NCBI GenBank assembly: GCA_039799345.1 | Contig: JBDLSS010000163.1 | Coordinates: 1-28,026 of the forward strand | Direction: 5' to 3' | Source of the DNA: Pseudomonadota bacterium | Lineage (GTDB): Bacteria > Pseudomonadota > Gammaproteobacteria > Beggiatoales > Beggiatoaceae | DNA: 28,026 nt | Shown: piece after piece, positions 1-26,948 of the stretch | How positions within the stretch are numbered: position 1 is the first letter of the stretch | Layout of the letters: the number at the start of each line of letters is the position of its first letter | Notes under the pieces: generated by a model | What the model was told of the DNA's origin: nothing | The model's input: only the letters and a program-made list of their open reading frames with translations | Databases searched by the model: none | Position numbers and translations under genes: made by a program

Positions 1-12
1 CTGAAACGTTAC

Positions 13-35
13 GGTGCAGGTTACAAACCTGCACC
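13..35. repeat. REP-like hairpin GGTGCAGGTT-ACA-AACCTGCACC
   Basis: Perfect 10-bp inverted repeat with 3-nt loop in intergenic DNA. Confidence 0.6.
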
Positions 36-149
36 AGCTTCATGGATTTTAGGGACGCAGTTAAAATTATTGTTTAGCACCGCCCGTTCATTCTGAAAAT
101 TTTTATTCAAACCAGTACGCGCTTTAGCCCCCTATCTGAGACCTCACAC

Positions 150-8909: not shown

Positions 8910-10823
8910 TTACTCCGCTACAGTAAACCGCAGCGGCTCATTTTGATTAAATACCAACTTCAGTGTTTGTGGAATCAAATAACCCACATAGACCGTGTAA
9001 TTGCCTGTAAATCCTTGAACATTCCCATCGAACACCGCAATTTTTTCTTCAGCATTCAAAGCCATCCTCACTTCGGCAGCCTTCAAATTTGCTAATTGAC
9101 CATCCCACGCTGTCCACGTTTGATTATTCCGAACAAACCACTGTCCTGCATAATTTGCCACAATGACCACATAAACAGTTCGTCCAACATCAGCCGCATC
9201 ACTACTCACATTTGTTGATACGTTAATCGACTGATTACGCTTAATGACTAGATTATTGCCTTGCTGCGTTCCACTGCTCACCAAGGGGGTAAAACTGGCA
9301 GTGCTGCCACGACTAATAGGTGTTTGCGCGCTTAAATCAAAAGCCCCACTGTTAAATGAACGCATCGCAAATGCACCAATATCGCATTGTGTACGTTTTA
9401 CTCCACGCTGATCGGTGGTTGGGCAATTTGTACCGCCATTAATAGCAGGACTGTTTGCTAACAATGCCAAAGTAGCACTCGCCCCCCCATTTTCATTTAA
9501 ACTTGCAAGCAAAGGATCAAGCACGCGACTGTTTGCCACAACTTTGACATCTTTAGGGTCTTGGGTGGATGGTGCGGGGAACTCGAGATTATTGCCCCCA
9601 TCTTTCAACGATGCGCCAACCTGCCAATTAATATTCCAAGGATTATCACCCTTGTTATTGCTGACAATGCTGTTACGCAGCGTGACCTTATCAGCATTTC
9701 CCCAAAATGCGCCCCCCATAAATCCTGCATAATTATTCGCAAGGGTCAAATTTGTAAAACTGCCCTCCGATTGGGTCGAATATAAAATTGCACCCCCCAA
9801 TCCTGAACCTGCACTTTCTTCTGCACGGTTATTATAAAAAGTGCTATTCAATAAACGGGTGGGTGTGGTTTCACCAATCCACAATCCACCGCCTTGACTA
9901 TAAGCGCGATTATTAGCAAACAGTACATTTTCAATCGTTAAATCCGCATTACCAACGCGGAGACCACCGCCCAAAGCATCCCCATTGGAACTTTTAAGCA
10001 CGGTGTTATCGGTAATGGCAGAATTATCAATTATAATTTTGTCGGGAGGATAGCCGAAAAGAAATAAGCCGCCCCCCTGTCCTGCCCCTTTGTTATTGCG
10101 GAATTGGCTGTGAGAAATTTGAATTGTGCCGCCCGTGCTGTCATTAGGGGCAGATGCACCATCTACATAAATAGCACCACCATAACCGCGCGTATCCCCT
10201 GCATTACTGCCCCCGGGTGTTGAATCATTATTGAGAAAAACCGAGCGTGTCACCGTCAGATTCCCCAACAAATGGTTGATTGCACCACCATTAATGCCGC
10301 GATTATTACGAAATAAGCTATCTGTCACGACCAGCGAGCCTAAACTTTTGGTCGCAATTGCACCGCCGCCACGCTCTTGATTACCCGCAGTGCCGTCATT
10401 ATTTTCAAAAATGCAATTGAATACGCTGGCAGTATTAAAATTTCCGAAATAAATACCGCTCCCAGAACCATCACTGCCTGTTTGTTGTCCATTTTTTAGC
10501 GTGAGATTTTTCAGGGTCACTTTGAGGTTGTTGTCACTGCGTAAGATGCGCGTGCGCTTGCCGCCGTCTAAAGTGATTAATCCCCCTTGTTGCGTGCCGC
10601 CGCCATCAATAAGCGTGTCTTTACTGATTAATAATTCACTGTTAATGCTAATAGTTGCGGGCGCATTGCCACAATTAAAACTTAATGTGCCGCCGATTGC
10701 GAATGCCGCACGTAACGCAGTTTCAGTGCAACTTGTCGCCGTACCTGTTCCAATCACCGCATCTGCCCATGTCAAAGGGCTGAATAGCATTAGCGTTAAA
10801 AGTATCCATTGTCTAAGAAACAT
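8910..10823 (-). CDS. Secreted right-handed beta-helix (POMP-repeat / choice-of-anchor-Q-like) surface protein
   Basis: Sec signal (MFLRQWILL...TWA|D) after a GGAGG RBS at ATG 10823; repeated GGAI/GGG and FxxN motifs; DPLLASL...SPAINGG...DQRG...DIGAF module; ~150-aa beta-rich C-terminal domain. Confidence 0.8.
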   Translation of the reverse strand: MFLRQWILLTLMLFSPLTWADAVIGTGTATSCTETALRAAFAIGGTLSFNCGNAPATISINSELLISKDTLIDGGGTQQGGLITLDGGKRTRILRSDNNLKVTLKNLTLKNGQQTGSDGSGSGIYFGNFNTASVFNCIFENNDGTAGNQERGGGAIATKSLGSLVVTDSLFRNNRGINGGAINHLLGNLTVTRSVFLNNDSTPGGSNAGDTRGYGGAIYVDGASAPNDSTGGTIQISHSQFRNNKGAGQGGGLFLFGYPPDKIIIDNSAITDNTVLKSSNGDALGGGLRVGNADLTIENVLFANNRAYSQGGGLWIGETTPTRLLNSTFYNNRAEESAGSGLGGAILYSTQSEGSFTNLTLANNYAGFMGGAFWGNADKVTLRNSIVSNNKGDNPWNINWQVGASLKDGGNNLEFPAPSTQDPKDVKVVANSRVLDPLLASLNENGGASATLALLANSPAINGGTNCPTTDQRGVKRTQCDIGAFAMRSFNSGAFDLSAQTPISRGSTASFTPLVSSGTQQGNNLVIKRNQSINVSTNVSSDAADVGRTVYVVIVANYAGQWFVRNNQTWTAWDGQLANLKAAEVRMALNAEEKIAVFDGNVQGFTGNYTVYVGYLIPQTLKLVFNQNEPLRFTVAE

Positions 10824-10898
10824 GTTTTCCTCCATCTCATTTGAACAACGCTTTAATAAGCCTAGCATAAGTTGTGAAGGGAGGAGTTTCTGATGTAT

Positions 10899-13046
10899 TC
10901 ATTGAGAACTACGTGCCACCCGTCCACTACTCAACGCCTGAATCACCGCGTCTTTCGGACCATCTGCCACAATTTGCCCGTTGTCGACCACGATTAAACG
11001 ATCCACCAAGCTTAACAATGAGGTGCGATGCGTGATTAACAATAAAGTTTTGCCTTCCAAATACGGCAACAAGCGCGTTTTAAATTGCTCTTCGCTACTA
11101 TTATCCATCGCATTGCTAGGTTCATCCATCAACAAAATCGGGGGGTTATGCAACAAGGCTCGCGCCAACGCAATCGCTTGCCGTTGCCCGCCCGACAAAC
11201 CTTCACCGCGTTCCCCAATTGGCAAATCAAAACCCAAAGGATGTTGGTTGACGAACTCGTCTACGCCCGCCAAATGTGCCGCCTGCACTAAAGCCGCATC
11301 GTCCAAATACGGCGCACCCATCACAATATTTTCCTTCACCGTGCCATAAAATAACACGCTATCCTGAGGCACATAGCCAATATTGCGGCGCAAATCCGCA
11401 GGGTCGAGCTGGCGGCTGTCGATGCCATCCAACAACACGCTGCCCTCGCCCACTTGGTACAAATTCAACAGCAATTTCGCAAGGCTACTTTTTCCCGAAG
11501 CCACGCGCCCAATAATGCCAACCCGTTCACCTGCTTGGATTTTGAAAGAAATATTTTGCAAAGTTTTCAGCGGCTGGGTGGGATATTGAAACTGCACATT
11601 TTTGAATTCGACCGCGCCCTGCAATTCGGGACGATGCACAAAATCCTGTCCTTCGGGGCGTTCCAAAGGCAAGCTCATAATGTGATTGAGTGCCTTCAAT
11701 GCCGCCCGAGATTGGTGATAACGCATCATCAAGCCTGCAACTTGCCCCAACGGAGCTAAGGCGCGTCCCGTCAAAATCGTGCTCGCAATCAACGCGCCCG
11801 TGCTCAATTCGCCCGCTTTGATTAAATACACCCCAAAAATCACGATAGCAATCGTTGCAACTTGTTGTACCAGTAACGTTAAATTCACCGCCAAAGCAGA
11901 AATCAAGCGCGAGCGTAAACTACTTTTTGCAATCTCGCCCAACAATTGTTCCCAACGCCGTTGCAACACGCCTTCCGCTTGCAGGGTTTTAATATTTTCA
12001 ATTGCAGCAAGGGCTTCCACTAACACCCCGTGCTTTTGCGCACTGGCGCGAAAACTTTGCTCGACCGCTGTACGCAGCGGAAATTGCAGCGAAAAACTAA
12101 TCAACAACACCACGGGCACGGCAAAAATCGGCACAAACACCAAATTGCCGCCAATTGCCCAAATCACTAATAAAAATAGTAAAGTAAAGGGCAAATCAAC
12201 CACGGTGGTTAAAGTTGCTGAGGTGAAAAAATCCCGAAAGCTTTCAAATTCCAATAAATGATTGGCAAATGCGCCCACAGAACGCGGATGCGCAATCAGA
12301 CGTGTGCCCATGACTTGTTCAAAAATCATGCTGGCTAAAATGATGTCGGATTTTTTACCTGCGAGATCAATAAAATAACCACGTAAGGTTCGCATCACAA
12401 ATTCAAAAGCGAACACGATACCCGCGCCAATTGCCAGCACCCACAAGGTTTCCAGCGCGTGATTAGGCACGACCCGATCATAAACATTCATCACAAACAG
12501 CGGTGAAGCAAGGGCGAATACATTAATCAATAAAGACGCGAGCAAGACTTCTAAATAAACATGCCACGACTTTGCCAGCGTGCCCCAAAACCAATTACGT
12601 GGGCGAGGAATTGCGCCTGCTTCAGAACGCGCATCAAAACGATAGGCTTGACGCACGCAAAGCGCGTAACCCGTGTACTGTTCTTGCAGGCTTGCCACGC
12701 TGATTTCAGCAAAGCCTTCGCCACTTTCAGGCTGAATAATTTGTGCAGTCGTTGGTGTGAGCTGTGCATTCAAAACGCAAGCTTGATTGTCTTTGAGTAG
12801 TAATACCGCAGGGAGTTGTAATTTAGTGAGTTTTTCTAGCGGACGCTTAATCACACGCGCACTTAAACCTGCGCGGGCGGCGGCGCGAATAAATAATTCT
12901 GGGGTTAAACCCTGTTCGGTCAGCGGTAAACCCGCATGTAAAGCTTCAGGGGAAAAAGGACGGTGATGTAGTTTAGTTAAAATCACTAAACAGTACAGCA
13001 AGGGATCATCAATACGCGGGGTTTCAAGCGGAATTGCAGTTGTCAT
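10899..13046 (-). CDS. Type I secretion permease/ATPase with N-terminal C39-like domain (LapB/LssB type)
   Basis: DDPLLYCL...EALHAGLP N-terminus, ABC membrane domain, GRVASGKS, LSGGQRQ, LLMDEP, ITHR. Start set at ATG 13046 because the longer ORF runs through tRNA-Ser. Confidence 0.93.
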   Translation of the reverse strand: MTTAIPLETPRIDDPLLYCLVILTKLHHRPFSPEALHAGLPLTEQGLTPELFIRAAARAGLSARVIKRPLEKLTKLQLPAVLLLKDNQACVLNAQLTPTTAQIIQPESGEGFAEISVASLQEQYTGYALCVRQAYRFDARSEAGAIPRPRNWFWGTLAKSWHVYLEVLLASLLINVFALASPLFVMNVYDRVVPNHALETLWVLAIGAGIVFAFEFVMRTLRGYFIDLAGKKSDIILASMIFEQVMGTRLIAHPRSVGAFANHLLEFESFRDFFTSATLTTVVDLPFTLLFLLVIWAIGGNLVFVPIFAVPVVLLISFSLQFPLRTAVEQSFRASAQKHGVLVEALAAIENIKTLQAEGVLQRRWEQLLGEIAKSSLRSRLISALAVNLTLLVQQVATIAIVIFGVYLIKAGELSTGALIASTILTGRALAPLGQVAGLMMRYHQSRAALKALNHIMSLPLERPEGQDFVHRPELQGAVEFKNVQFQYPTQPLKTLQNISFKIQAGERVGIIGRVASGKSSLAKLLLNLYQVGEGSVLLDGIDSRQLDPADLRRNIGYVPQDSVLFYGTVKENIVMGAPYLDDAALVQAAHLAGVDEFVNQHPLGFDLPIGERGEGLSGGQRQAIALARALLHNPPILLMDEPSNAMDNSSEEQFKTRLLPYLEGKTLLLITHRTSLLSLVDRLIVVDNGQIVADGPKDAVIQALSSGRVARSSQ

Positions 13047-13120
13047 GGGATTGCACGCAGCGAAAATCATGCAAGATAGCTTAGAATAAGCAACATAGAC
13101 ACGCAAGGAAAGAATAAGGC

Positions 13121-13210
13121 TGGCGGAGAGGGCGGGATTCGAACCCGCGTGGGGTTTCCCCCCAACCGATTTCGAGTCGGTGCCGTTATGACCGCTTCGA
13201 GTACCTCTCC
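13121..13210 (-). tRNA. tRNA-Ser (anticodon CGA)
   Basis: GGAGAGG/CCTCTCC acceptor stem plus GCCA, ACCGA-CT-CGA-AA-TCGGT anticodon arm, long variable arm, GGTTCGAATCC T-arm; 90 nt. Confidence 0.97.
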
Positions 13211-13276
13211 AATGCGGCATAATATAGCATTATCAACGTATTTTTAACAGCCTTTAATTAGAGAAGCGACCCCCCT

Positions 13277-14916: not shown

Positions 14917-16536
14917 ATGGAACAAGCTCCCTCTTATCTGAATTCTAGACTAGAAAGTCGAGAACTACGCAATCTAGTTGTAAAAAACATGGTTATCGCC
15001 GTGTTCGCGAAACTATTTTATTTAGGATCGCGTCTATTTTTGCCCCCCATTACCCTCGCGTATGTAAGTTTGGAAGAATACGGCATTTGGGCGGTCTGCT
15101 TTATTTTGATTGGTTATTTAGGCATGGGAGCGTTTGGAGTTTCTAATGTATACATTCGCTACATTGCTGAATACCACGCTAATAATCAAATACAACGTAT
15201 CAATGGTTTAATGTCCACAGGCATTATTTTTGTATGTGGTATTTGTGCAACGTTAATGCTGACTTTATGGTTTATATTGCCCGACTTGATTGAAAACAGT
15301 TTCCATATTTCCCCGCATCTTCAGCAAACCGCATTTTATTTAATTTATGGAGCTGCCAGTATTTTTATTTTGGAACTTATCATGGGCGCGTTTATTTATC
15401 TTTTAGAAGGTTTACAACGCTTTGCCATCACCTCACTTGCTTTCACCGCCGCATCTCTATTAGAAACAGGATTGGCGATTGTATTTTTATTTTTAGGAAT
15501 GGGTATTTACTCGTTATTATATGCGTTTATCGCTCGTTATATTTTTTACATAACTGCCTGTATTCGCGCGAGTTACCGTGAATTACCCGGACTTTCGGTA
15601 CATGTGCGGAATTTTAGCATCAGTTATCTCCCCTTATTTTTCAAGTTTGGCGCAATTGTCCAAGCGATGGGATTTTTATCAATTTTTGTCCAGTCTATGG
15701 AAAAATTAATTGCTAGCGTCACCTTGGGTGTGGCTGCCACAGGTTTATTAGAAGTGGGGTCAAAATTAGCCACCACCGCCACCACGATTCCCGCCGCAAT
15801 GACCACGGCTTTTCTGCCAGCAACCTCTTATTTACACACCCAAAACCGCAAAACTGAATTGAGTGACATGTATTTGCAAGGCTCACGTTCAATGAATTTA
15901 ATCACAGGATTATTAATGGGTTTTTTAATGGCATTTTCCCATCAAATCATGATGTTATGGTTAGGTAATAACCCAAAATATTCAATTGCTGTTGATATTA
16001 TGATGTTATTTATTTTGCCACAACAAACTCATATTTTGACGGGTTTAGGTTCTGCCATTTTTTACGGCATTGAAAAACCGATATTGACCTTATCATATCT
16101 TTTGCTAAGAATAGGTTTATTTTTGCCCTTTGCAGTGCTGTATTGGTTGAATATTATGGAGTTAACCCTGATTAATTTGGTGTTAGCGGTGACGGCAACC
16201 ACAATTATCAGTGCGTTACTTTATTTGGTGCAAATTAATTACTACATGAAAGTCTCACACTGGAAGTTTTTCCTGAAGGTTTTGCTGCCTGGTGCGTTCC
16301 CATATGTTTGTGGATTTACAAGCCTAGGGGTGCTGAATTTACTGTGGACAACCCCTATTATTGACCGTACTTCAGCGTTCTCATTTTTAATGCTGGGCGG
16401 AATTTTATACAGTGTCATCGTGTTTCCTGGTATTTATTGGGGCATTTATGATTCACATGAACGTGCTGAATTGAGGGTGGTGATTTTGCGGAGTTTGGTA
16501 TTTATGGGAAAATTTATCCCTGCGTTACGACATTAA
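14917..16536 (+). CDS. Polysaccharide/oligosaccharide flippase (Wzx-like, MOP superfamily)
   Basis: 539 aa highly hydrophobic; LGSRLFLPP...LEEYGIW N-terminal pattern, EKLIAS.TLGVAATG central motif. Confidence 0.8.
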   Translation: MEQAPSYLNSRLESRELRNLVVKNMVIAVFAKLFYLGSRLFLPPITLAYVSLEEYGIWAVCFILIGYLGMGAFGVSNVYIRYIAEYHANNQIQRINGLMSTGIIFVCGICATLMLTLWFILPDLIENSFHISPHLQQTAFYLIYGAASIFILELIMGAFIYLLEGLQRFAITSLAFTAASLLETGLAIVFLFLGMGIYSLLYAFIARYIFYITACIRASYRELPGLSVHVRNFSISYLPLFFKFGAIVQAMGFLSIFVQSMEKLIASVTLGVAATGLLEVGSKLATTATTIPAAMTTAFLPATSYLHTQNRKTELSDMYLQGSRSMNLITGLLMGFLMAFSHQIMMLWLGNNPKYSIAVDIMMLFILPQQTHILTGLGSAIFYGIEKPILTLSYLLLRIGLFLPFAVLYWLNIMELTLINLVLAVTATTIISALLYLVQINYYMKVSHWKFFLKVLLPGAFPYVCGFTSLGVLNLLWTTPIIDRTSAFSFLMLGGILYSVIVFPGIYWGIYDSHERAELRVVILRSLVFMGKFIPALRH

Positions 16537-16612: not shown

Positions 16613-19600
16613 TCAAGCAGGCTTACTCCGCAACTGCACTTCTTTGCGCAACATGTCCCGCAATTCTTGCACCGCAGGATCACGAAATTCGATACGGTAT
16701 AAAGTCAAAATCAAATCAAATAAACGCGGAAAATATAGCCCAAGCTCCCGAAAGTCGCCATAAGAACGCCCCCGCAATAACGGCGGCAACGCTGTCCGCG
16801 CTTCCCCTTCCAAAAGCAAAGGAATCACCGTATTTTTTTCAGCCTCCGTAGCTAATAAACGTTGTGCGATTAAATCCACTTCCGCCGCCACCACACTGCC
16901 CAAATTCGAGACTTTATTTTCATATTTATCCAAATACAACGGCACGCCCACCACTACAATAAAATCGCAATGCTCAATTCGACTGATGAAACGCGACACG
17001 CTAGACCCCAGCGTTGAATTGTCCCAATCGTCTAAAATCACCTCAATGCCCGCATCCTGCATATCCATCGCCAGCTTTTTCACCCAGCGTTCCTGCGTGT
17101 CCACGCCCCAGGCATAGCTGATAAACACCAAAGGTACTTTTCCCTGCCCGCGCCCGCGCAAATAACTTTTCACCCACACCAAGGCTTTGGCATACACCGT
17201 GCGTTCCAGCGCGGAAACTTGTTCACGCTCCAAGGTTTCACGCGTCACCGCCGATAAATGTTGCTCTCCTCGCTGTGACAGAAAAGTAATTTTGCCGCCG
17301 CACTCGCCACAAAACATGAAGGCTTTTTGCGCTTTTAAACGTTTAGCGATTTCACTGCGTTCTTGATGATAATTACAAATGCTACACACTACAGGCGGAT
17401 AGCGTTGAATAACAACTTCACGCCCGCGCAGAAAACGTTCAAATAAGCCTTGAAACAGCAATTTTGTGGATTCTTGCACTTTATAAGAATAATACAGCAC
17501 AAACTCCAGCTCGCCTTCACGCTCTTCAATCTTGCGAAAGCCACAAATTTCGCCCGCGCCTAATTCATATTGCGCTTGATTATGCCATTGTTGCACCCGT
17601 AAAAAAGTGTTGGTATAACCCAATAACACCACTAACGCCGCATATAAGTTTTCAATTGCGCCCGTGACTGCATACGACATATCTTCAAAAATCGGGATTT
17701 TATCCACCGCAGGACGTTTTTGATTAATTAAGCTGGGAAAGACTAATAAACTTTCGCCGTTGTAACTTTCACGAAAACAGAGGGTATGCTCTAAAAATAG
17801 TGCGAGAGCGGCATCTAGTAACACTTCTTTTTCGGTGGGTGTCAGTTCAGATAATTCGGGTAAATCATATTCACCACGCAACACCCGTGATTCTTCCAAC
17901 GCGCCCAAACCTTTTTCATTGCGTCGCGCTTCTAAAATTAAAGAAGAGGCTAAATTACTTAATAAATCAGGTGTTAATAAAATGCTGTATTTTCCCGCAG
18001 AACCCCGTAACAAAGTGATATAGCCATGATTTGCCAGATGTTGTAGCGCAGTTAATAATTCTGCTTGGCTGAATTGCCATGATTCTTCACGTTTTTGCAA
18101 AGATTGCTGTAATTCTTCAAGATTTAATAAAGTATTTTTACGGCGTGGCTGGTCTTTTAAAGCCAATACAAATTCTTTAATGCGTTTAAACGTTAGCGTG
18201 GTCACGGTGGCGGTCATGGTGTCCCAACGCAAAGCTTGCCGCACCCGTGTTTTCAAAGCGTGCAAACCTTCGCCCGTCATTGCGCTGGAAATCAAATAGC
18301 CTTCGCTGACTTCGTGCTGCTGACAAAATGCGTCTAATTCTTCGGCGGTCAAAGTCGGTGCGCCTCGGTCACAACGCGCCCCGACTAATAAAGTACGACA
18401 GTGATTTTCTTTATTCGCGCTACCGAGCTGTCGCAACCAATATTCCACGCCTTTGAGCGGTTCTTGCTGGTGGCTGGGGTCAAATAACACAATCGCTAAA
18501 TCGACTTCGTCCAAAAATAGCGCGTGAACCAGTCGATAATCGGGTTGTCCCGCCAAATCCCATAATACGGCTTCGCATTCGGTGCCGTCGCTGCGGGTCA
18601 CTTTGAGGTCGGGAATAATCCAAAATTGTTGCCCGTGGGTGGAGGCGTGTTCTTTGAATTCGTTGTGTGCTAATCGCCAGCCTAAGCCTGTTTTGCCTAC
18701 GCCGCTGTCACCGACGAGCACAATTTTGGCGGTGGTGTAATGTACCGTTGTGGCAAGCGTGGGAACTGGGGTTGTCGGTTTGCTGAAGGATGTGCCCAAG
18801 GCGCGTAAACGACTGAATAATCCTGAAAAACTACTTTCACTGCTGGCGCGGGGCAGGGCTAATAAACGCGCGGTGTCGAGTTTCCACAGGCGAATTTCAC
18901 GATCTTTTTTGCCCAAACTTGCCAACATCGGTTCGGTGGGATGAAACGCTAAACCGCCTAACCATAATTGATGATCCGTGGGTTCTTGCAACACGGTGAG
19001 TAAACTGCAATCTTCGGTACGCCATAAACGCACGCTGTCGTCGTCGGATTTGGAGGCGAATAATTGCCCATCGCGTGAGCAGGCGAGTTTGTAAACCACG
19101 TCGGTGTGCCCTTCCAAAACCCGCGCTTGTCGCCCGGTGATGATTTCCCACACCCGAATGGTTTTATCGCTGCTCGCAGAAAAAAGTAGCGGTTGCGTGG
19201 GCGAAAATAACACGCTGAACACCATGCCTGAATGCGCTTTTAAAGTGCGTAATAATTGCCCGGTGTCGGGATGCCAGAGGCGAATCAGTTTGTCATCTGA
19301 ACCTGAGGCGAGCATGTTGCCGTCGGGTGACCATGCGACGCTGTTGACGTTGCGGGCGTGGGCATTGAGGCTGTGGCGTACTTGCCAAGTGCTGGTATCC
19401 CATAATAAAACCGTGCCATCATCCGCGCCAGAAGCCAGCAAACTGTCGTCGGGCGACCATGCCAAGGCATTAATGCTGCCTGCGTGTTGTTTCAAGCTGT
19501 GGCAAAGTATGCCCTGTTGATCCCAAATATGAATGCTTTTATCATTGCCGCCTGCCGCCAAATAGTGACCTTGTTGTGACCAGCAGGCAATGCGCGGGTA

Positions 19601-19783
19601 GCCGCTGGGGCAGGGCAGGCATTGTAATAAATTGCCTGTCGCGGTTTCCCAACACAGCAAGCTGTCGTCAAAGGAGGAGGATACCAGCACGCGCCCATCG
19701 GGAGACCAATGTAAACCATTGATGGCGTTGGTATGTCCTTCGAGGGTTTGATAAAGGCTAAAGCCTTCGGGAATAGCGGTCAT
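16613..19783 (-). CDS. WD40-repeat / Roc GTPase / COR / Zn ribbon / TIR-SEFIR multidomain (ROCO-type) protein
   Basis: Seven WD40 repeats (aa ~10-302); G1 GDSGVGKT (358-365), G3 WDLAGQ, G4-like GARCD, G5 SSAMTG; COR-like region with FPSL; CxxC-21-CxxC (800-828); TIR-like VFISYAW...WVKKLA...GIEVILDDW (885-1030). Confidence 0.85.
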   Translation of the reverse strand: MTAIPEGFSLYQTLEGHTNAINGLHWSPDGRVLVSSSFDDSLLCWETATGNLLQCLPCPSGYPRIACWSQQGHYLAAGGNDKSIHIWDQQGILCHSLKQHAGSINALAWSPDDSLLASGADDGTVLLWDTSTWQVRHSLNAHARNVNSVAWSPDGNMLASGSDDKLIRLWHPDTGQLLRTLKAHSGMVFSVLFSPTQPLLFSASSDKTIRVWEIITGRQARVLEGHTDVVYKLACSRDGQLFASKSDDDSVRLWRTEDCSLLTVLQEPTDHQLWLGGLAFHPTEPMLASLGKKDREIRLWKLDTARLLALPRASSESSFSGLFSRLRALGTSFSKPTTPVPTLATTVHYTTAKIVLVGDSGVGKTGLGWRLAHNEFKEHASTHGQQFWIIPDLKVTRSDGTECEAVLWDLAGQPDYRLVHALFLDEVDLAIVLFDPSHQQEPLKGVEYWLRQLGSANKENHCRTLLVGARCDRGAPTLTAEELDAFCQQHEVSEGYLISSAMTGEGLHALKTRVRQALRWDTMTATVTTLTFKRIKEFVLALKDQPRRKNTLLNLEELQQSLQKREESWQFSQAELLTALQHLANHGYITLLRGSAGKYSILLTPDLLSNLASSLILEARRNEKGLGALEESRVLRGEYDLPELSELTPTEKEVLLDAALALFLEHTLCFRESYNGESLLVFPSLINQKRPAVDKIPIFEDMSYAVTGAIENLYAALVVLLGYTNTFLRVQQWHNQAQYELGAGEICGFRKIEEREGELEFVLYYSYKVQESTKLLFQGLFERFLRGREVVIQRYPPVVCSICNYHQERSEIAKRLKAQKAFMFCGECGGKITFLSQRGEQHLSAVTRETLEREQVSALERTVYAKALVWVKSYLRGRGQGKVPLVFISYAWGVDTQERWVKKLAMDMQDAGIEVILDDWDNSTLGSSVSRFISRIEHCDFIVVVGVPLYLDKYENKVSNLGSVVAAEVDLIAQRLLATEAEKNTVIPLLLEGEARTALPPLLRGRSYGDFRELGLYFPRLFDLILTLYRIEFRDPAVQELRDMLRKEVQLRSKPA

Positions 19784-20580: not shown

Positions 20581-23544
20581 CTAGGGGGGAAAAGAAACAA
20601 CACGGAAACCGATGTCGTTGTGCCTGTCGTCGCTCCCACCCGAGTAGCCGCTGCAACGAAAGGCAGAACGACAGTCATCCGCATGGTGGCCCCAAGAACC
20701 ACCGCGCAACGGGCGATTTCCATCACCATTTTCTGAACCATAAGCCGTACCATCTGCACTGGCATCTGCAAAATTACGATGCCACTCGTCTTGACACCAT
20801 TCCCACACATTACCGTGCATATCGTACAAACCAAAAGCATTGGGAGGAAATGAGCCAACGTCTACAGTTTTTCCACGACATAAGCCTTTAGGCATCCCTT
20901 CACAAGGATAATTCCCATTATAATTCACTAACTCTGGCGTAATAATGTATCCAAAGTGATATTCCGTGGTTGTTCCTGCACGACAGGCATATTCCCATTC
21001 CGCTTCACTGGGCAAACGAAACCCATTTCCCAACTTTTGACAAAATTCCTTAGCTTGTTTCCAAGTCATATTTTCCGCAGGTAAATTGTCGCCTTTAAAA
21101 TATGAAGGATTTTCACCCATCACCGCTTTATATTGCGCTTGAGTCACCGCATATTTCCCCATATAAAATGGCTGCAAATGAAAAGTTTTACCGTATATTT
21201 CCAGCTCACCTTCAGGAATATAAACCATTTCCAAAGGCACACCATTGGGTAATTTATGGGTGATTTGGCGGGCTTTACATTGACGTTTTTTCTGTTTCAA
21301 AATGGCTTCGGAAACGACTTTTTCAACCTTTTTCGTAGTTAAACCAAACCAAGCAGGTTCTTCCACAATAATTGTTTTTCGTGGTTCAACTTCTACCGTC
21401 ACAGTTTCAAAACTAAACTCAGTCTCTTGAAAATTAGTGACTTTAGCGGGTTGACTCGGACTCACTTTAGGCAGCTGTGCTGCTGCCGCTGCCAACGCAG
21501 CCGCTTGCCGCTGTTTCTCTGCCAACTCAGCCAACAAACGCGCTTTTTGCTCCTCACTTTGAATAGCTTGCGTTTGCGCCATTAAAGCTTCAATTTCAGC
21601 CGCTAAAGTCTGCGCTTGTTTCAAAGCATCCTGTTTTTCCTGAGATAAAGCTGCATTTTTCGCTTCCAAGTCTGCCAGTTTTTGCTGCAAATCCGCCTGT
21701 GCTTTTTTCTCCGCTTTTGCCTTCGCTTTAGCCGCTTTTTTAACCTCCTCCGCTGCCAACTCCTCCGCAAGCCGCTGCTTATCCAAACCCAGCGCGTTCT
21801 CAAAAAACACAATCAAATCCGCAACCGCAGGACGTTTTTCAATCTGAACCTCAACACAATCACACAGAATATGACGCACTGCTTCAGGCAAATCACGCTC
21901 CAGACAATACTCAGGTCGCTTTCCACTGTACAACTGCATCAAAGTTTTTCCATAACTAAACACATCGGTTTTAGCCGTGGGTTTACCCAGTCTTGAATCT
22001 TTCATTTCAGGCGCGGCATAATCCCAAGTGCCCGCCATTTTTAAACTCAAAGTGGAAGATTTAGAATGCGACAAAGCTTTCTGTTTCAAACTTCTGCCCA
22101 CATGCGACAGCCCAAAATCAATAATTCTGACCGTCACCCCTTCCGCAGTTTCCAGCAATAACAAATTAGACGGCTTCAAATCCAAATGCAGCACCCCACA
22201 TTCATGCGCCGCCTGCAAACCCCGCGCAAGACTCAAAGCCACCTGAAACCCCGTTTCCCCTTGCAACACCCCGCGCTGCGCTAACCACATTTCCCCATCA
22301 ATCGCATTTTCAATATATTCCGTAACTAAAAATGCTTTTTCGCCATAAAATCCTTCTGACAAGGGACGCGGCACATAACGACTGTCCACACGTTCCATCG
22401 CCAAGGCTTCGTTAAAAACTTCATGCGGTTCGCCCTGTGGCATTTGCCAAAAACACTTCAACACCACCAAACGTTTTCGAGAAAGCCATGTCGCCAAAAA
22501 CGCACAACCCATCCCGCCCGCCCCTAACAACTTCTCCAAACGGAATAATTTTGGGTCATGCAGCGCAAGCGAGCGGTCTAATTCAATGGCTTCTTGCAAA
22601 TGCTCAAATGCAATTTGATTAAATTCCGACAAGCTATAACGCAAATACACCTGAAATAAATTGAAATGCACCAAAGCCCGCTCAGAATTTTGTTGCGCGA
22701 GCTGTAATGCCTGTTCCAATAAATGCCGCGCCTCCTCCAATTCTCCCAAAGAAAACGCCGCACTGCCCGCCATCAAACAAGCTTTTGCACGCTCCGCAGG
22801 ATTCAAAGGCGTGCGTTTTAATTTACCCACCGCCTCGCCAATCAATTGCATCGATTGTGAACTGACGTGTTTAAATTCATCCTCCGCTTCAATGCGCGGC
22901 GCAATCCCTTGTGCTTCCAAACGCGAAATTAATGCTGTAACTTTTTGCAATTCGTCATAAATGCCCGCCGTTTGCAAAGCCGTTAAACGCTCATTAATAC
23001 TCGGATTGTTCCGCAAAAAGAACTCAATCGCATTGCCCAGCAAATTCTGATGCAGTAAAAACGCTTCAACTTCAGTTTCTAAAACGGTCAGCGTTTTCAA
23101 TTGTTGCAACAATAAAGCAGTCATGTTGATTTGCCCTTTTGGCGAGACCAACACCGCTAAATCCAGCTCACTGTGAATTTCAGCAGCGAATAATTGCGGC
23201 GCGAAACTCTGCAAATTGCCACACGCTTTTGCCAATTGGGTTTTAAATTGTGCAGTTTCAGGCTGGGCAGCGTGAAAAAACGTGGGCAAATAATACGAAT
23301 GCACTTGCCGTTTAAACTGCTTTTTTATTTTGGAATGGGCAACATCAAGCAGTGAAGGTGAGCAAACATTTTGGATAACGCTTAAAGCATCTTTAAACGC
23401 CAATTGATAAGCTTCTGACATTTGATAAGCGGATAAAGTCCAGTGTTTACGTAACACCGCGATAATTTTATCTTTATTACCCGTTGCCAACTCACCGAGT
23501 TCTAATAAAGACTGTAAACCTGATTCAAGTAGCGAAGAAAGCAT
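20581..23544 (-). CDS. Ser/Thr protein kinase with N-terminal helical domain and TPRs, coiled coil, and C-terminal FGE-sulfatase-type (C-type lectin fold) domain
   Basis: Hanks motifs LGAGGMG, VVLK, HLDLKPSN, IIDFG, GTWDYAAPE, DVFSYG (aa 334-585); TPR-like helices ~250-325; A/E/K/Q coiled coil 590-690; FGE motifs VTQAQY, RLPSEAEWEYACRAG, PNAFGLYDMHGNVWEWC, RGGSW...GFRVV. No signal peptide or TM seen. Confidence 0.92.
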   Translation of the reverse strand: MLSSLLESGLQSLLELGELATGNKDKIIAVLRKHWTLSAYQMSEAYQLAFKDALSVIQNVCSPSLLDVAHSKIKKQFKRQVHSYYLPTFFHAAQPETAQFKTQLAKACGNLQSFAPQLFAAEIHSELDLAVLVSPKGQINMTALLLQQLKTLTVLETEVEAFLLHQNLLGNAIEFFLRNNPSINERLTALQTAGIYDELQKVTALISRLEAQGIAPRIEAEDEFKHVSSQSMQLIGEAVGKLKRTPLNPAERAKACLMAGSAAFSLGELEEARHLLEQALQLAQQNSERALVHFNLFQVYLRYSLSEFNQIAFEHLQEAIELDRSLALHDPKLFRLEKLLGAGGMGCAFLATWLSRKRLVVLKCFWQMPQGEPHEVFNEALAMERVDSRYVPRPLSEGFYGEKAFLVTEYIENAIDGEMWLAQRGVLQGETGFQVALSLARGLQAAHECGVLHLDLKPSNLLLLETAEGVTVRIIDFGLSHVGRSLKQKALSHSKSSTLSLKMAGTWDYAAPEMKDSRLGKPTAKTDVFSYGKTLMQLYSGKRPEYCLERDLPEAVRHILCDCVEVQIEKRPAVADLIVFFENALGLDKQRLAEELAAEEVKKAAKAKAKAEKKAQADLQQKLADLEAKNAALSQEKQDALKQAQTLAAEIEALMAQTQAIQSEEQKARLLAELAEKQRQAAALAAAAAQLPKVSPSQPAKVTNFQETEFSFETVTVEVEPRKTIIVEEPAWFGLTTKKVEKVVSEAILKQKKRQCKARQITHKLPNGVPLEMVYIPEGELEIYGKTFHLQPFYMGKYAVTQAQYKAVMGENPSYFKGDNLPAENMTWKQAKEFCQKLGNGFRLPSEAEWEYACRAGTTTEYHFGYIITPELVNYNGNYPCEGMPKGLCRGKTVDVGSFPPNAFGLYDMHGNVWEWCQDEWHRNFADASADGTAYGSENGDGNRPLRGGSWGHHADDCRSAFRCSGYSGGSDDRHNDIGFRVVSFPP
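20590..20715 (-). other. Putative DGR variable repeat (VR) at the 3' end of the kinase-FGE gene
   Basis: Invariant frame RGGSW..C RSA.R..R..GFRVV with variable positions encoded by GGC CAC CAT / GAT GAC / TTT / TGC AGC GGC TAC / AGC GAC GAC / CAC AAC GAC ATC, all reachable from AAC/AAT by adenine substitution. No template repeat or RT in the window. Confidence 0.6.
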
Positions 23545-24990: not shown

Positions 24991-25211
24991 TGTCCGAATC
25001 AAGATTTACAGGCTTAAAAGATTTCTAGAATTATAGGAATTACGCAGTTTAATCTGCAACTATTTGATTTTAATTTAAATATTATTTTGCGGCGAACAGT
25101 GCTAGCTTATTGAAAAAAAGGAGTTACTGTTTCAACTGCGTAAATTCTAAATTAAAAAACTTGTCATTAATTCTGCTTAATTCGGATAATCCTGTAAATC
25201 ATGATTCAGGA
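24991..25211. repeat. Degenerate TGTCTGAATC-type palindromic element containing a nested second element
   Basis: Left arm TGTCCGAATCAAGATTTACAGGCTT..., right arm ...AATTCGGATAATCCTGTAAATCATGATTCAGGA; both resemble 3867-3910. Confidence 0.75.
25034..25149. repeat. MITE-like element with TAGGA(A/G)TTACGCAGTT ends, copy C1
   Basis: TAGGAATTACGCAGTT...AACTGCGTAAATTCTA; 116 bp; shares internal AATCTG(C/T)AACTATTTGATTTTAAT with 26991-27107. Confidence 0.78.
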
Positions 25212-25403
25212 AAGGTTTTTTACAGACATAACTTTAAACCAACTTTACTGATAGTTTATGATCAAAAAATATGAAATAGGCAAGATTTATGCAGGGAAAT
25301 GTTTTGAATAGACGACTGCATTCCGCATCGCTTAAAACTTGCTTGTTGACAACCAAAAGCAAGCCACGCTTAATCGTTAATAACCCACTCCATCGGAGCT
25401 GAG

Positions 25404-26948
25404 ATGAACTATAAAATTACGGTGATTGGGTCTGTTGCAAATACGCCGATTTATACCGAAGCATACATTTTGGATTTGCTAAATACGCAAGAAACCGCGC
25501 TACTGTATGGCGAAACGTTCACGGGTAGACCGGGCACAAAAATTTATATTAATCCTGAAAGTGTCTTGAAAATTCGCAGCGAAATCCGTTTAGATAATCG
25601 TTCGGCAAAACGCTGGGCAATTCAAGCCTTAGATAAGGAAAAAGCATATTTAGTACACCATCCTCAAAAGACATGGTTTATTGCAGAAATTGATAATGAT
25701 ACACCGAGTATTATTGGAAATATTTGCCCAAGAATTAAGCCATTACATGAGTTATTTAATGAAAGTAGTCTCAGTCTTGAGCAACGCTTGACTTATCTTA
25801 GCAAAATCTTTGAACATTATTTTCGCGTCGCGAAACAATTAGACATTCGTCTGGATGAAGGTTTGTCAAATTTTGGGGTGGATGTGCAGGGCGAACTTTA
25901 TTACTTAGACGATGATATTTACAGTTGGGATCGATTTATTTCCTGTGCTCAAATGCTCGGGGTTTATATTCGTTCGTTGGCATGGCTCACGCCTGAGATT
26001 GTGACGCAATTTTCGCAAAATATACGGCGCATCATCTTAGAATATTTTCATGATCCTGAAGTATTGCGGGTATTAGCAGAGCAATTAAAAGATTTGTTCA
26101 TGCCAAATGAACGCTTGCGCCAATTCGTACATCAATTTGTCGATGGACTCTACCGTCAAACTGCCCCCAAACATTTAAACAAACTGCATCACAGCCGTTA
26201 TATCGCTTTGATTGGGGATATTCATGCAAACCTGCCTGCGTTGGATGCGGTGCTTGCGTATTTAAACCATCAAGGAATTAAACGCGGAGTATTATTGGGG
26301 GACATCGTCGGTTATGGACCTTATCCCAGCGAATGTATTGCTCGAATTCAAAACTCGCAATTTTTGGTGGTGAAAGGAAATCATGATCAAGGTTTAGCCA
26401 CAGATAACTTCAAAAAAGGCTTTTCTAAAACAGCGGCATGGGTTTTGGAGTGGTGTGAATCGCGAGTGAGTGCGGTCGAAAAAAAGTGGTTAGAAGATTT
26501 ACCCTCTGTGCTGCATGAAGAATCTTGGATGGCATTGCACGGCGCACCAATAGACCCCACTTTTTTCAATGCTTATGTTTATGAAATGACTTATCACGAC
26601 AATTTAGATGTTTTAGAACGCAAAAATATTCCTGTCTGTTTTCATGGGCATACTCATCAACCACAAATTTACGCGCGGCGTGGCAGTCGTTTATTAGACG
26701 CATCTTATGACGGTGATGTGATTGATTTGAAAAAATTTAACTATTCATTAGTTTGTCCTGGTTCTGTTGGGCAACCACGCAATGGAAAAATTGGAGCACA
26801 GTTTGCCATTTATGATCAGCAAGAGCGTATCGTACATTATCACACCGTCCCTTATGATTTAACTAATATTATTGCGTATATGGAACAAGAGCAGTTTCCT
26901 GTCAGCTTGCTTAAAATGCTCAAGGGACAATCACCAAATTCGCCATAA
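25404..26948 (+). CDS. Calcineurin-like metallophosphoesterase (YfcE/MJ0936 type) fused to an N-terminal protein-kinase-like domain
   Basis: C-terminal half: GDIHAN, GDIVGYG, GNHD, HG, GHTH, PGSVGQPR (strong). N-terminal half: GRPG-TKIY, VLK56, E79, D151-x4-N156, D169 (kinase-like spacing, inferred). Confidence 0.8.
   Translation: MNYKITVIGSVANTPIYTEAYILDLLNTQETALLYGETFTGRPGTKIYINPESVLKIRSEIRLDNRSAKRWAIQALDKEKAYLVHHPQKTWFIAEIDNDTPSIIGNICPRIKPLHELFNESSLSLEQRLTYLSKIFEHYFRVAKQLDIRLDEGLSNFGVDVQGELYYLDDDIYSWDRFISCAQMLGVYIRSLAWLTPEIVTQFSQNIRRIILEYFHDPEVLRVLAEQLKDLFMPNERLRQFVHQFVDGLYRQTAPKHLNKLHHSRYIALIGDIHANLPALDAVLAYLNHQGIKRGVLLGDIVGYGPYPSECIARIQNSQFLVVKGNHDQGLATDNFKKGFSKTAAWVLEWCESRVSAVEKKWLEDLPSVLHEESWMALHGAPIDPTFFNAYVYEMTYHDNLDVLERKNIPVCFHGHTHQPQIYARRGSRLLDASYDGDVIDLKKFNYSLVCPGSVGQPRNGKIGAQFAIYDQQERIVHYHTVPYDLTNIIAYMEQEQFPVSLLKMLKGQSPNSP

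What the first reader, a model, noticed from the sequence alone, without database searches (positions are those of the whole stretch)
25404..26948. Unannotated N-terminal domain looks like an atypical protein kinase fused to a metallophosphoesterase (writer and eraser in one chain)
Seen: the first ~250 aa carry a Gly loop (TGRPGTKIY), a beta3-like Lys (VLK56), a helix Glu79 followed by LVHHP, a catalytic-loop-like L-D151-EGLS-N156 and YYL-D169. The D-to-N (+5) and N-to-D (+13) spacings equal PKA D166/N171/D184. The C-terminal half has all calcineurin-like metal ligands. Inference: a bifunctional kinase/phosphatase toggle, or a toxin-antitoxin-like pair in one polypeptide. I do not recognise this fusion, and automated annotation would probably report only the phosphoesterase.
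Basis: partly seen in the sequence, partly recalled or inferred. Interest (0 to 1): 0.75.

Follow-up and report, generated by a model that had tools for sequence, protein, structure and literature searches.

The report
Kinase-like domain fused to metallophosphoesterase
This gene encodes a conserved bacterial enzyme that joins an uncatalogued protein-kinase-like domain to a phosphatase-type domain, and in most other bacteria it sits beside a small Ras-like GTPase switch, so it is probably an unstudied output or feedback enzyme of that switch.

Summary
ORF 25404-26948 (+) encodes 514 aa. Only residues 267-473 match a known family (calcineurin-like metallophosphoesterase, MPE).

K56, D151, N156 and D169 are each kept in at least 216 of about 219 relatives, E79 in 209 of 221, and every MPE metal ligand in at least 217 of 219. 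The domain is almost never found without the MPE.

The writer/eraser reading is plausible but unproven. The toxin-antitoxin reading has no support.

New context: in 50 of 79 loci from other genomes the gene directly abuts a Roadblock (MglB-like) gene, usually with a Group 3 MglA-type GTPase. All 8 genomes carrying the fusion in a 301-genome sample also carry that GTPase. In this genome the partners lie on other contigs.

This scan already met the same fusion beside GTPase-Roadblock operons on other DNA (three follow-ups). I found no paper describing it.

The parts
25404..26948 (+). Whole gene: 514-aa PKL-MPE fusion protein (P0001)
   Evidence: ORF. There are 675 homologues with the same two-domain length of about 500-530 aa. 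The full-length AF2 model has pLDDT 89.9 and pTM 0.83.
25396..25399 (+). GGAG ribosome-binding site, 5 nt before the ATG. It lies in a 415-nt intergenic region that holds promoter-like sites.
   Evidence: Sequence read. The best sigma-70-like match is at 25161-25190 (10 of 12), but such matches are not enriched over shuffles.
25404..26165 (+). N-terminal protein-kinase-like domain (aa 1-254), a family without a Pfam model
25509..25571 (+). Long flexible Gly-rich loop (G36, G41, T45) and the beta3 strand ending in K56
   Evidence: G41 is kept in 210, T45 in 213 and K56 in 216 of 221 relatives. The loop at 33-44 has low pLDDT and lies between two strands; K56 is in strand 53-58. VLK56 aligns with VAIK of Pkinase and LVK of AceK.
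25638..25640 (+). E79 codon, in helix 65-82 (alphaC-like)
   Evidence: Kept in 209 of 221 relatives but lost in the most divergent clade. It aligns with the alphaC Glu of the Pkinase profile.
25848..25916 (+). Catalytic loop and metal-binding segment, aa 149-171. It holds D151, N156, D169, D170 and D171.
   Evidence: Translation. D151, N156, D169 and D170 are each kept in 218 of 219 aligned relatives; D171 is D or E in 217. The segment aligns with HRD..N / DFG of Pkinase and with GD..KNFGV..DYD of AceK. In the model it follows the long helix 125-146 and includes strands 157-159 and 165-167.
26166..26198 (+). Interdomain linker (aa 255-265), variable in length among relatives
   Evidence: pLDDT is about 60 here. 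Relatives carry insertions of up to about 150 aa at this point.
26199..26945 (+). C-terminal binuclear metallophosphoesterase domain (aa 266-514) with all metal ligands
   Evidence: Pfam Metallophos_2 at 8.9e-14 and Metallophos at 8.4e-12, both above their cut-offs. phmmer to PDB 3RQZ gives 2.3e-33 over the full length. Foldseek matches 3RQZ, PH1004, 1NNW and SapH. Each ligand is kept in at least 217 of 219 relatives.

Best explanation
The gene encodes a two-domain enzyme. Residues 1-254 form an atypical protein-kinase-like phosphotransferase domain. Its likely catalytic set is complete: Lys56 on beta3, Glu79 on the alphaC-like helix, Asp151 and Asn156 in the catalytic loop, and the metal-binding Asp169 followed by Asp170 and Asp171. 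In shape and profile it is closest to the minimal kinases AceK, Bud32, RIO and WaaP. It has no activation segment of the Hanks type. A short linker joins it to a binuclear metallophosphoesterase of the 3RQZ / PH1004 / SapH / YfcE clade that has all its metal ligands. Both active sites are conserved together across the family, so both are probably active. The family is an accessory component of Group 3 MglA/MglB small-GTPase modules. Those modules comprise a receiver/wHTH-like protein, a Ras-like GTPase with TRxD and DAR motifs, and one or two Roadblock proteins. In most lineages the fusion gene abuts a particular Roadblock gene. In this organism's lineage the genes have dispersed. My inferred mechanism is that the kinase-like domain uses ATP to phosphorylate a component of that module. 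The Roadblock partner is the first candidate, then the GTPase or the receiver-like protein. The phosphoesterase domain would reverse the mark, giving a phospho-toggle that sets, or is set by, the GTPase switch. Shown here: the fold, the residue conservation, the obligate fusion, and the gene linkage and co-occurrence. Inferred: catalytic activity, the substrate, and the direction of control.

Residues. K56, D151, N156, D169 and D170 are each kept in at least 216 of about 219 aligned relatives, and E79 in 209 of 221. Their register matches the Pkinase and AceK motifs. The hhalign comparison with AceK gives P = 0.011.

MPE. Pfam scores are above the cut-offs. 3RQZ matches at 2.3e-33. Each ligand is kept in at least 217 of 219 relatives.

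Obligate fusion. Of 148 cluster representatives that match the N-domain among 1.84 billion proteins, nearly all are about 500-540 aa. Only 25 shorter hits exist, and many of them are partial or lie on short contigs.

Linkage. A Roadblock gene lies within 700 bp in 50 of 79 loci: 28 in tandem upstream and 22 convergent downstream. It lies within 8 kb in 58 of 79 loci. The GTPase is present in 43 loci and the ~340-aa protein in 42. These loci span Methylococcales, Competibacter, Marinobacter, Nitrospira and Phycisphaerales. The 135-aa neighbour has a Roadblock/LAMTOR2 fold. The GTPase shows TRxD and DAR motifs, as described for Groups 2 and 3 MglA in PMC4316618.

Co-occurrence. All 8 fusion-bearing genomes of a 301-genome class sample also carry this GTPase, against 44 of 301 overall.

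Own genome. The GTPase and the N-terminus of the ~340-aa protein are on contig C106. Two Roadblock genes, 68-74% identical to the Thiomargarita neighbour-type copy, are on C355.
Against: No biochemical data exist for any member. The window itself shows no linkage to the GTPase module; its neighbours are a HemN-like radical-SAM gene and a haem-protein gene. The characterised relatives of the MPE domain act on nucleotides or phosphodiesters, not phosphoproteins, and matches to PrpA/PrpB protein phosphatases are far below their cut-offs. Sequence-profile similarity to kinases is weak: E 0.16 to Pkinase and 0.011 to AceK. Position D+1 is Glu152, and there is no Lys at D+2 as in Ser/Thr kinases. 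One natural member has a destroyed catalytic loop (P0182) and another has lost MPE ligands (P0225). Each domain can therefore persist without the other's chemistry. Related genomes are not independent, so the co-occurrence statistic is overstated.
Confidence: 0.6

Rival explanations
1. Small-molecule or nucleotide enzyme. The kinase-like domain phosphorylates a metabolite or nucleotide, or only senses ATP. The phosphoesterase hydrolyses a nucleotide signal such as Ap4A, a cyclic or linear nucleotide, or a phosphodiester. The two domains would then process a small-molecule messenger for the GTPase module rather than a phosphoprotein.
For: The nearest solved MPE relatives are 3RQZ, PH1004, the SapH Ap4A hydrolase/phosphodiesterase and YfcE. 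VIA-align scores small-molecule kinases almost as high as Bud32: APH at 9.7, amicoumacin kinase at 9.7, and the ATP-dependent NIS synthetase AcsD at 9.8. The C-lobe lacks an activation segment. PilZ, cNMP-binding and globin genes occur near some loci.
Against: The best Foldseek and profile matches are to AceK and Bud32, which act on proteins. The tightest conserved neighbour is a protein (Roadblock), not a metabolic gene. No metabolic operon context recurs.
Confidence: 0.25
2. Pseudokinase scaffold. The N-domain is a non-catalytic nucleotide-binding or docking module that couples the phosphoesterase, the only enzyme, to the Roadblock/GTPase complex.
For: P0182 keeps an intact MPE but has lost D151, N156 and D169. 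Several VIA-align matches are pseudokinases: BIR2, IRAK3 and MLKL. Bud32 and RIO act in cells mainly as ATPases or switches (established knowledge).
Against: Conservation of K56, D151, N156 and D169 in at least 216 of about 219 relatives is what a catalytic site predicts and is unusual for a pseudokinase.
Confidence: 0.1
3. A toxin-antitoxin-like or anti-phage defence protein, with a toxic kinase neutralised in cis by the phosphatase.
For: Only the formal analogy to HipA-type kinase toxins. The window also holds other large signalling and conflict-type proteins, a WD40-Roc protein and a kinase-FGE protein.
Against: No PADLOC match for it or its usual neighbours. It is single-copy. Its distribution within families looks vertical, and its conserved neighbours are signalling genes. 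HipA was not among the structural matches listed.
Confidence: 0.03

Closest known systems
AceK, isocitrate dehydrogenase kinase/phosphatase (PDB 3EPS, 6K5L, 4P69; Pfam PF06315)
   Same: It is the best Foldseek match in both PDB and Swiss-Prot and the best profile match (hhalign P 0.011). The register is shared: LVK with VLK56, GD..KNFGV with D151..SN156FGV, and DYD with D169-D-D171. Both are bacterial atypical kinases that pair kinase and phosphatase functions in one polypeptide.
   Different: AceK carries out both reactions in one kinase active site (established knowledge), has a large N-terminal regulatory domain (PF20423), and has no MPE domain. Here a separate binuclear metallophosphoesterase is fused. 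Pfam AceK_kinase does not match. Identity is about 14-18%.
Bud32 (KEOPS) and RIO / WaaP-Kdo minimal kinases
   Different: There is no detectable sequence relationship. The N-terminal extension (strand 3-10, helix 19-26), the long Gly-rich loop and the conserved DDDxYxWD segment are specific to this family. Bud32 works with Kae1, not with an MPE or a GTPase.
Metallophosphoesterase 3RQZ (Sphaerobacter thermophilus), PH1004/1NNW, SapH (3QFM), YfcE
   Same: The C-domain is homologous to 3RQZ over its whole length (2.3e-33, about 31% identity). It has the same fold and the same metal ligands.
   Different: Those are stand-alone proteins of about 250 aa. Their known activities are on Ap4A and phosphodiesters, and none is fused to a kinase-like domain.
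Group 3 MglA/MglB systems (Wuichet & Sogaard-Andersen 2014, PMC4316618; Snodgrassella mgl locus, PMC11112851)
   Same: The usual neighbours of this gene family match the published description: an unknown protein, an MglA homologue with deviant G4 and DAR G5 motifs, and one or two MglB/Roadblock proteins.
   Different: The paper's text has no occurrence of phosphoesterase, phosphatase or calcineurin. Only a subset of Group 3-type GTPase genomes carries the fusion, 8 of 44 in the sample. In this window the gene is unlinked from the module.
Bacterial Pnkp (polynucleotide kinase-phosphatase) and PFK-2/FBPase-2
   Same: Each has kinase and phosphatase domains in one chain. Pnkp's phosphatase is also a calcineurin-type MPE (recalled knowledge, not tested here).
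   Different: Their kinase domains are P-loop folds, not PKL. No Hen1/ligase or glycolytic context is present.

Membership tests
Protein-kinase-like (PKL) superfamily | Bilobal kinase fold: N-lobe sheet with an alphaC helix, and a helical C-lobe | tested here: met
   The AF2 model has pLDDT 95.5. All listed Foldseek and VIA-align top matches are PKL-fold proteins.
Protein-kinase-like (PKL) superfamily | beta3 Lys, catalytic-loop Asp..Asn (+5), and a metal-binding Asp after beta8 | tested here: met
   K56 is kept in 216, and D151, N156 and D169 in 218 each, of about 219 aligned relatives. Their positions in the model's strands and loops fit, and their register fits Pkinase and AceK profiles.
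Protein-kinase-like (PKL) superfamily | Gly-rich nucleotide loop between beta1 and beta2 | tested here: inconclusive
   G36, G41 and T45 are conserved, but they lie in an unusually long, low-confidence loop at residues 33-44. It is not a canonical GxGxxG.
Protein-kinase-like (PKL) superfamily | ATP-dependent phosphotransfer activity | not testable with these tools
   This needs biochemistry.
Hanks-type eukaryote-like protein kinases (Pfam PF00069) | Sequence match to the Pkinase profile, HRDxKxxN, activation segment and APE motif | tested here: not met
   There is no Pfam hit for any of 52 members. hhalign E is 0.16. Position D+2 is Gly153, not Lys. No APE-type segment is present; helices follow directly after residue 179.
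AceK family (PF06315 + PF20423) | Match to the AceK_kinase profile and presence of the AceK regulatory domain | tested here: not met
   There is no Pfam match. The profile similarity is only borderline (P 0.011). No regulatory domain is present. AceK is the closest relative, but this is not a member.
Calcineurin-like metallophosphoesterase superfamily (PF00149 / PF12850) | Motifs DxH, GD, GNH[DE], H, GHxH; profile score above the cut-off; MPE fold | tested here: met
   The scores are 52.2 and 46.4 bits against cut-offs of 27 and 21.5. All ligands are present and conserved. The fold matches 3RQZ with TM 0.83 by target.
PPP-type Ser/Thr protein phosphatases (PrpA/PrpB, lambda PPase) | GDxVDRG and GNHE motifs; score above the NCBIfam equivalog cut-off | tested here: not met
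   The scores are 23.6 and 20.9 bits against cut-offs of 326 and 332. The motif reads GDIVGYG, with no Asp-Arg. PPP structures rank far below 3RQZ and SapH.
Group 3 MglA/MglB module (as accessory component) | Gene adjacency to MglA-type GTPase and Roadblock genes | tested here: not met
   None lies within the window. Adjacency is met in 50 of 79 loci of other genomes.
Group 3 MglA/MglB module (as accessory component) | Co-occurrence with the module in the same genome | tested here: met
   The own genome has the GTPase and a fragment of the ~340-aa protein on C106, and two Roadblock genes on C355. In the class sample, all 8 genomes with the fusion have the GTPase.
Known anti-phage defence / toxin-antitoxin systems | Match to a PADLOC model, or a defence or mobile context | tested here: not met
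   There is no PADLOC match. The conserved neighbours are signalling genes.

The most novel reading that the evidence does not exclude
The fusion is the effector of a bacterial G-protein pathway. The Group 3 MglA-type GTPase, held on a Roadblock dimer, would directly switch an AceK-like kinase and its fused phosphatase between writing and erasing a phosphate on a module component. That would be a prokaryotic counterpart of GTPase/Roadblock-gated kinases such as Rag-Ragulator with mTORC1, or ROCO/LRRK, and it would give the uncharacterised Group 3 Mgl systems their missing enzymatic output.
Probability: 0.25. Interest if true: 0.8.

Novelty: new variant of a known kind. Interest (0 to 1): 0.55.

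Why it matters
If this is correct, it defines a new family within the kinase-like superfamily that current annotation hides under 'metallophosphoesterase'. It also shows an unusual design, with kinase and binuclear phosphoesterase in one chain. [quoted passage not shown] The family occurs in cultivable Methylomicrobium, Methylovulum and Marinobacter strains. Some of these may be genetically tractable (recalled, not checked here), so the hypothesis could be tested directly.

Tried and rejected
- Sequence searches of the N-domain found nothing useful. Pfam (single protein and all 52 members), NCBIfam, and PDB by phmmer and by profile gave only an insignificant PI4K-IIalpha/beta fragment.
- hhalign against one Hanks kinase, and against a 29-sequence Pkinase alignment built from related genomes, was not significant (E 0.32 and 0.16). 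I used it only for motif register.
- PADLOC gave no match for the fusion or its usual neighbours, so I dropped the defence/toxin reading.
- The search for related loci with the divergent N-domain alignment failed because no stretch was conserved enough. I repeated it with the closer full-length alignment.
- The ~340-aa module protein was not found in the own genome with a single query. An HMM later found its N-terminal 92 aa at a contig end.
- Literature searches for kinase-like plus metallophosphoesterase fusions, Roadblock/GTPase plus metallophosphoesterase, and MglA/MglB plus phosphoesterase found no description of this family.
- Model coordinates are not exposed. I therefore could not measure the K56-E79 distance, make a residue-level superposition on AceK or Bud32, or see whether the two active sites face each other.
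- I checked the HemN-like neighbour as a possible partner. It recurs in only 8 of 80 loci and at varying distance, so I treat it as synteny, not a functional link.
Full report
**Observation**

The window holds one long ORF at 25404..26948 on the + strand, encoding 514 aa. It is preceded by a 415-nt intergenic region and by a GGAG 5 nt before the ATG. Pfam sees only Metallophos_2 and Metallophos at residues 267-473. NCBIfam sees only sub-threshold phosphodiesterase and phosphatase models. Residues 1-254 match nothing in Pfam, in NCBIfam, or in PDB sequences searched by phmmer or by profile.

**The family**

A word-indexed search found 675 homologues. All of the 120 best listed are 442-554 aa and carry the MPE domain. 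They come from Beggiatoa, Thiomargarita and Thioploca relatives, Methylococcales, Nitrospira and others.

An exhaustive phmmer of the N-domain alone against 1.84 billion cluster representatives gave only 148 hits, nearly all about 500-540 aa. A profile search restricted to shorter proteins gave 25 hits, many of them partial or on short contigs. The N-domain therefore occurs almost only fused to this MPE.

In a hmmalign of 221 near-full-length members, down to about 22% identity:
- K56 is kept in 216 and E79 in 209.
- D151, N156, D169 and D170 are kept in 218 each.
- D171 is Asp or Glu in 217.
- Each MPE metal ligand is kept in at least 217 of 219.

There are two natural exceptions. P0182 has lost D151, N156 and D169 but keeps the MPE. 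P0225 has lost three MPE histidines but keeps the kinase motifs.

**Fold**

AlphaFold2 with a 52-sequence alignment gives pLDDT 95.5 for residues 1-254. With a 30-sequence alignment it gives pLDDT 89.9 and pTM 0.83 for the whole protein.

The order of secondary-structure elements is that of a kinase:
- K56 lies in strand 53-58.
- A long helix follows at 65-82 and holds E79.
- Two strands follow at 90-96 and 102-109, then a long helix at 125-146.
- Next comes a loop carrying D151 and N156.
- Two short strands at 157-159 and 165-167 come next, then D169.
- After residue 179 there are only helices, with no Hanks-type activation segment.

The structure searches agree:
- Foldseek against PDB returns only kinase-fold proteins among its 50 best matches: AceK first (E 1e-4), then PknB, MPS1, APH(3')-Ia and COQ8A.
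- ESM Atlas gives TM 0.55-0.59 to the Kdo/WaaP, APH, RIO1 and AceK clusters.
- In Swiss-Prot models the best matches are AceK, then Bud32.
- AFDB clusters show two clusters of the same architecture. One is at only 15% identity (A0A6C2YQA8, 588 aa), so the architecture reaches further than HMMER sees.

**Residue register**

Profile-profile alignments are weak but consistent. Against a Pkinase alignment built from related genomes (E 0.16):
- VLK56 pairs with VAIK.
- E79 pairs with the alphaC Glu.
- RLD151EGLSN156 pairs with HRDxKxxN.
- YYLD169 pairs with the DFG Asp.

Against an AceK alignment (P 0.011):
- VLK56 pairs with LVK.
- D151..SN156FGV pairs with GD..KNFGV.
- D169-D-D171 pairs with DYD.

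AceK is therefore the closest characterised relative, but this protein is not a member of the AceK family. Pfam AceK_kinase does not match and the AceK regulatory domain is absent.

**The phosphoesterase**

The C-domain is homologous over its full length to the stand-alone MPE 3RQZ (2.3e-33). By fold it matches PH1004/1NNW, the SapH Ap4A hydrolase/phosphodiesterase and YfcE. PPP protein phosphatases rank far lower. The PrpA/PrpB models score 21-24 bits against cut-offs above 320. So 'eraser of a phosphoprotein' is possible but is not what its nearest characterised relatives do.

**Context**

In the window the neighbours are a HemN-like radical-SAM gene upstream and a haem-protein gene downstream. 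Further upstream lie a kinase-FGE protein and a WD40-Roc protein. None of these recurs with the family.

Elsewhere the picture is different. In 10 first loci, and then in 80 named genome loci, the gene is linked to a conserved cluster of:
- a ~340-aa unknown protein;
- a ~175-aa small GTPase (Pfam ATP_bind_1/Ras);
- one or two 135-aa proteins.

The 135-aa protein has a Roadblock/LAMTOR2 fold. The GTPase has TRxD in place of [NT]KxD, and a DAR G5 motif. The cluster thus matches the 'Group 3 MglA system' of Wuichet & Sogaard-Andersen (PMC4316618).

The counts over 79 loci are as follows:
- A Roadblock gene lies within 700 bp in 50 loci: 28 in tandem upstream and 22 convergent downstream.
- A Roadblock gene lies within 8 kb in 58 loci.
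- The GTPase is present in 43 loci.
- The ~340-aa protein is present in 42 loci.

The 21 loci without any of these are short contigs or belong to the window's own Thiotrichaceae/Thiomargarita-like clade. Other members of that broader group keep the linkage (Ca. Thiomargarita nelsonii, Marithrix, Thioploca). I infer that linkage was ancestral and was lost in this lineage.

In a 301-genome sample of the class, the fusion occurs in 8 genomes from 6 families and the GTPase in 44. All 8 fusion genomes have the GTPase. Kin are not independent, so this is supportive rather than a formal test.

The window's own genome (86% complete, 464 contigs) has a single copy of the fusion. It has the GTPase and the start of the ~340-aa protein on contig C106. 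It has two tandem Roadblock genes on C355, 68-74% identical to the neighbour-type copy of Thiomargarita.

**Mechanism**

Shown: a kinase-like fold with an intact, conserved catalytic set; an intact MPE; obligate fusion; and linkage and co-occurrence with a Roadblock/GTPase module.

Inferred: the kinase-like domain phosphorylates a module component and the MPE reverses it. The Roadblock partner is the first candidate because it is the most tightly linked gene. The result would be a phospho-toggle coupled to the GTPase switch.

The main rival is a small-molecule or nucleotide reading, based on the MPE clade and on the similar scores of small-molecule kinases. A pseudokinase-scaffold reading is weakened by the near-universal catalytic residues. 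A toxin-antitoxin or defence reading lacks any support.

**What is known**

Wuichet & Sogaard-Andersen describe the GTPase cluster, but their text has no occurrence of phosphoesterase, phosphatase or calcineurin. [quoted passage not shown] I found no paper on this fusion.

This scan has already met the same fusion beside GTPase-Roadblock operons in three other genomes, and a lone homologue in a fourth. I reached the linkage independently before reading those notes. I then verified the 'Group 3' label they gave.

**Verdict**

The kinase-fold inference is supported. The writer/eraser idea is plausible but untested. The toxin-antitoxin idea is rejected.

This is a new, uncatalogued PKL family in a new architecture, a new variant of known kinds, with a testable link to bacterial small-GTPase signalling. 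In this particular window the gene stands alone, and the family has been flagged elsewhere in this scan, so I score interest at 0.55.

Noticed in passing
G000 contig C355 (L022) 917-1366 and 1473-1874, minus strand: There are two tandem Roadblock/MglB-like genes between an RsmD-type methyltransferase and a fatty-acid hydroxylase gene. Both are of the type that abuts the fusion gene in other genomes (68-74% identical to the Thiomargarita copies).
   Followed up: partly
G000 contig C106 (L023) 474-986 and 3-278, minus strand: A Group 3-type MglA GTPase is followed by the first 92 aa of the receiver/wHTH-like module protein, which is cut by the contig end. The gene order (GTPase, then unknown protein) is the reverse of the usual one.
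   Followed up: partly
P0182 and P0225 (homologues): These are natural half-dead variants. P0182 has lost D151, N156 and D169 but keeps all MPE ligands. P0225 keeps the kinase motifs but has lost three MPE histidines.
   Followed up: partly
L049, L052, L055, L063 (Nitrospira) and L060, L070, L073, L090, L094: A ~320-340-aa protein recurs near the fusion gene in 9 of 80 loci. In the Nitrospira sp. NS4 locus (L003, the same record as L049) it carries globin domains (Bac_globin; Globin weak). In Nitrospira it comes with DUF420 and PilZ genes downstream and a cNMP-binding Crp-type regulator upstream. This hints at a gas, redox or c-di-GMP input.
   Followed up: no
AFDB cluster A0A6C2YQA8: A 588-aa 'calcineurin-like phosphoesterase' at only 15% identity has the same kinase-like N-domain (TM 0.79). 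The architecture therefore extends beyond what sequence searches recover.
   Followed up: no
window 20581-23544 (-): A 987-aa protein combines TPR, a Hanks-type kinase domain, a long coiled-coil linker and a C-terminal FGE-sulfatase (C-type-lectin-like) domain. The scan flagged it separately.
   Followed up: no
window 16613-19783 (-): A 1056-aa WD40 propeller plus Roc/Ras GTPase protein. It is a second, unrelated GTPase signalling protein in the same window.
   Followed up: no
window 8910-10868 (-) and 14917-16536 (+): Two long ORFs (652 and 539 aa) have no Pfam match. The first lies directly downstream of a C39-peptidase ABC exporter gene (10899-13220, -) on the same strand.
   Followed up: no
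Roadblock proteins adjacent to the fusion in 55 loci: The adjacent Roadblock protein is unusually conserved. Stretches such as VDGALGCAVVDL, HNVPYFT and NLGMGW are at least 90% identical across phyla. It is much more conserved than the second Roadblock copy.
   Followed up: partly
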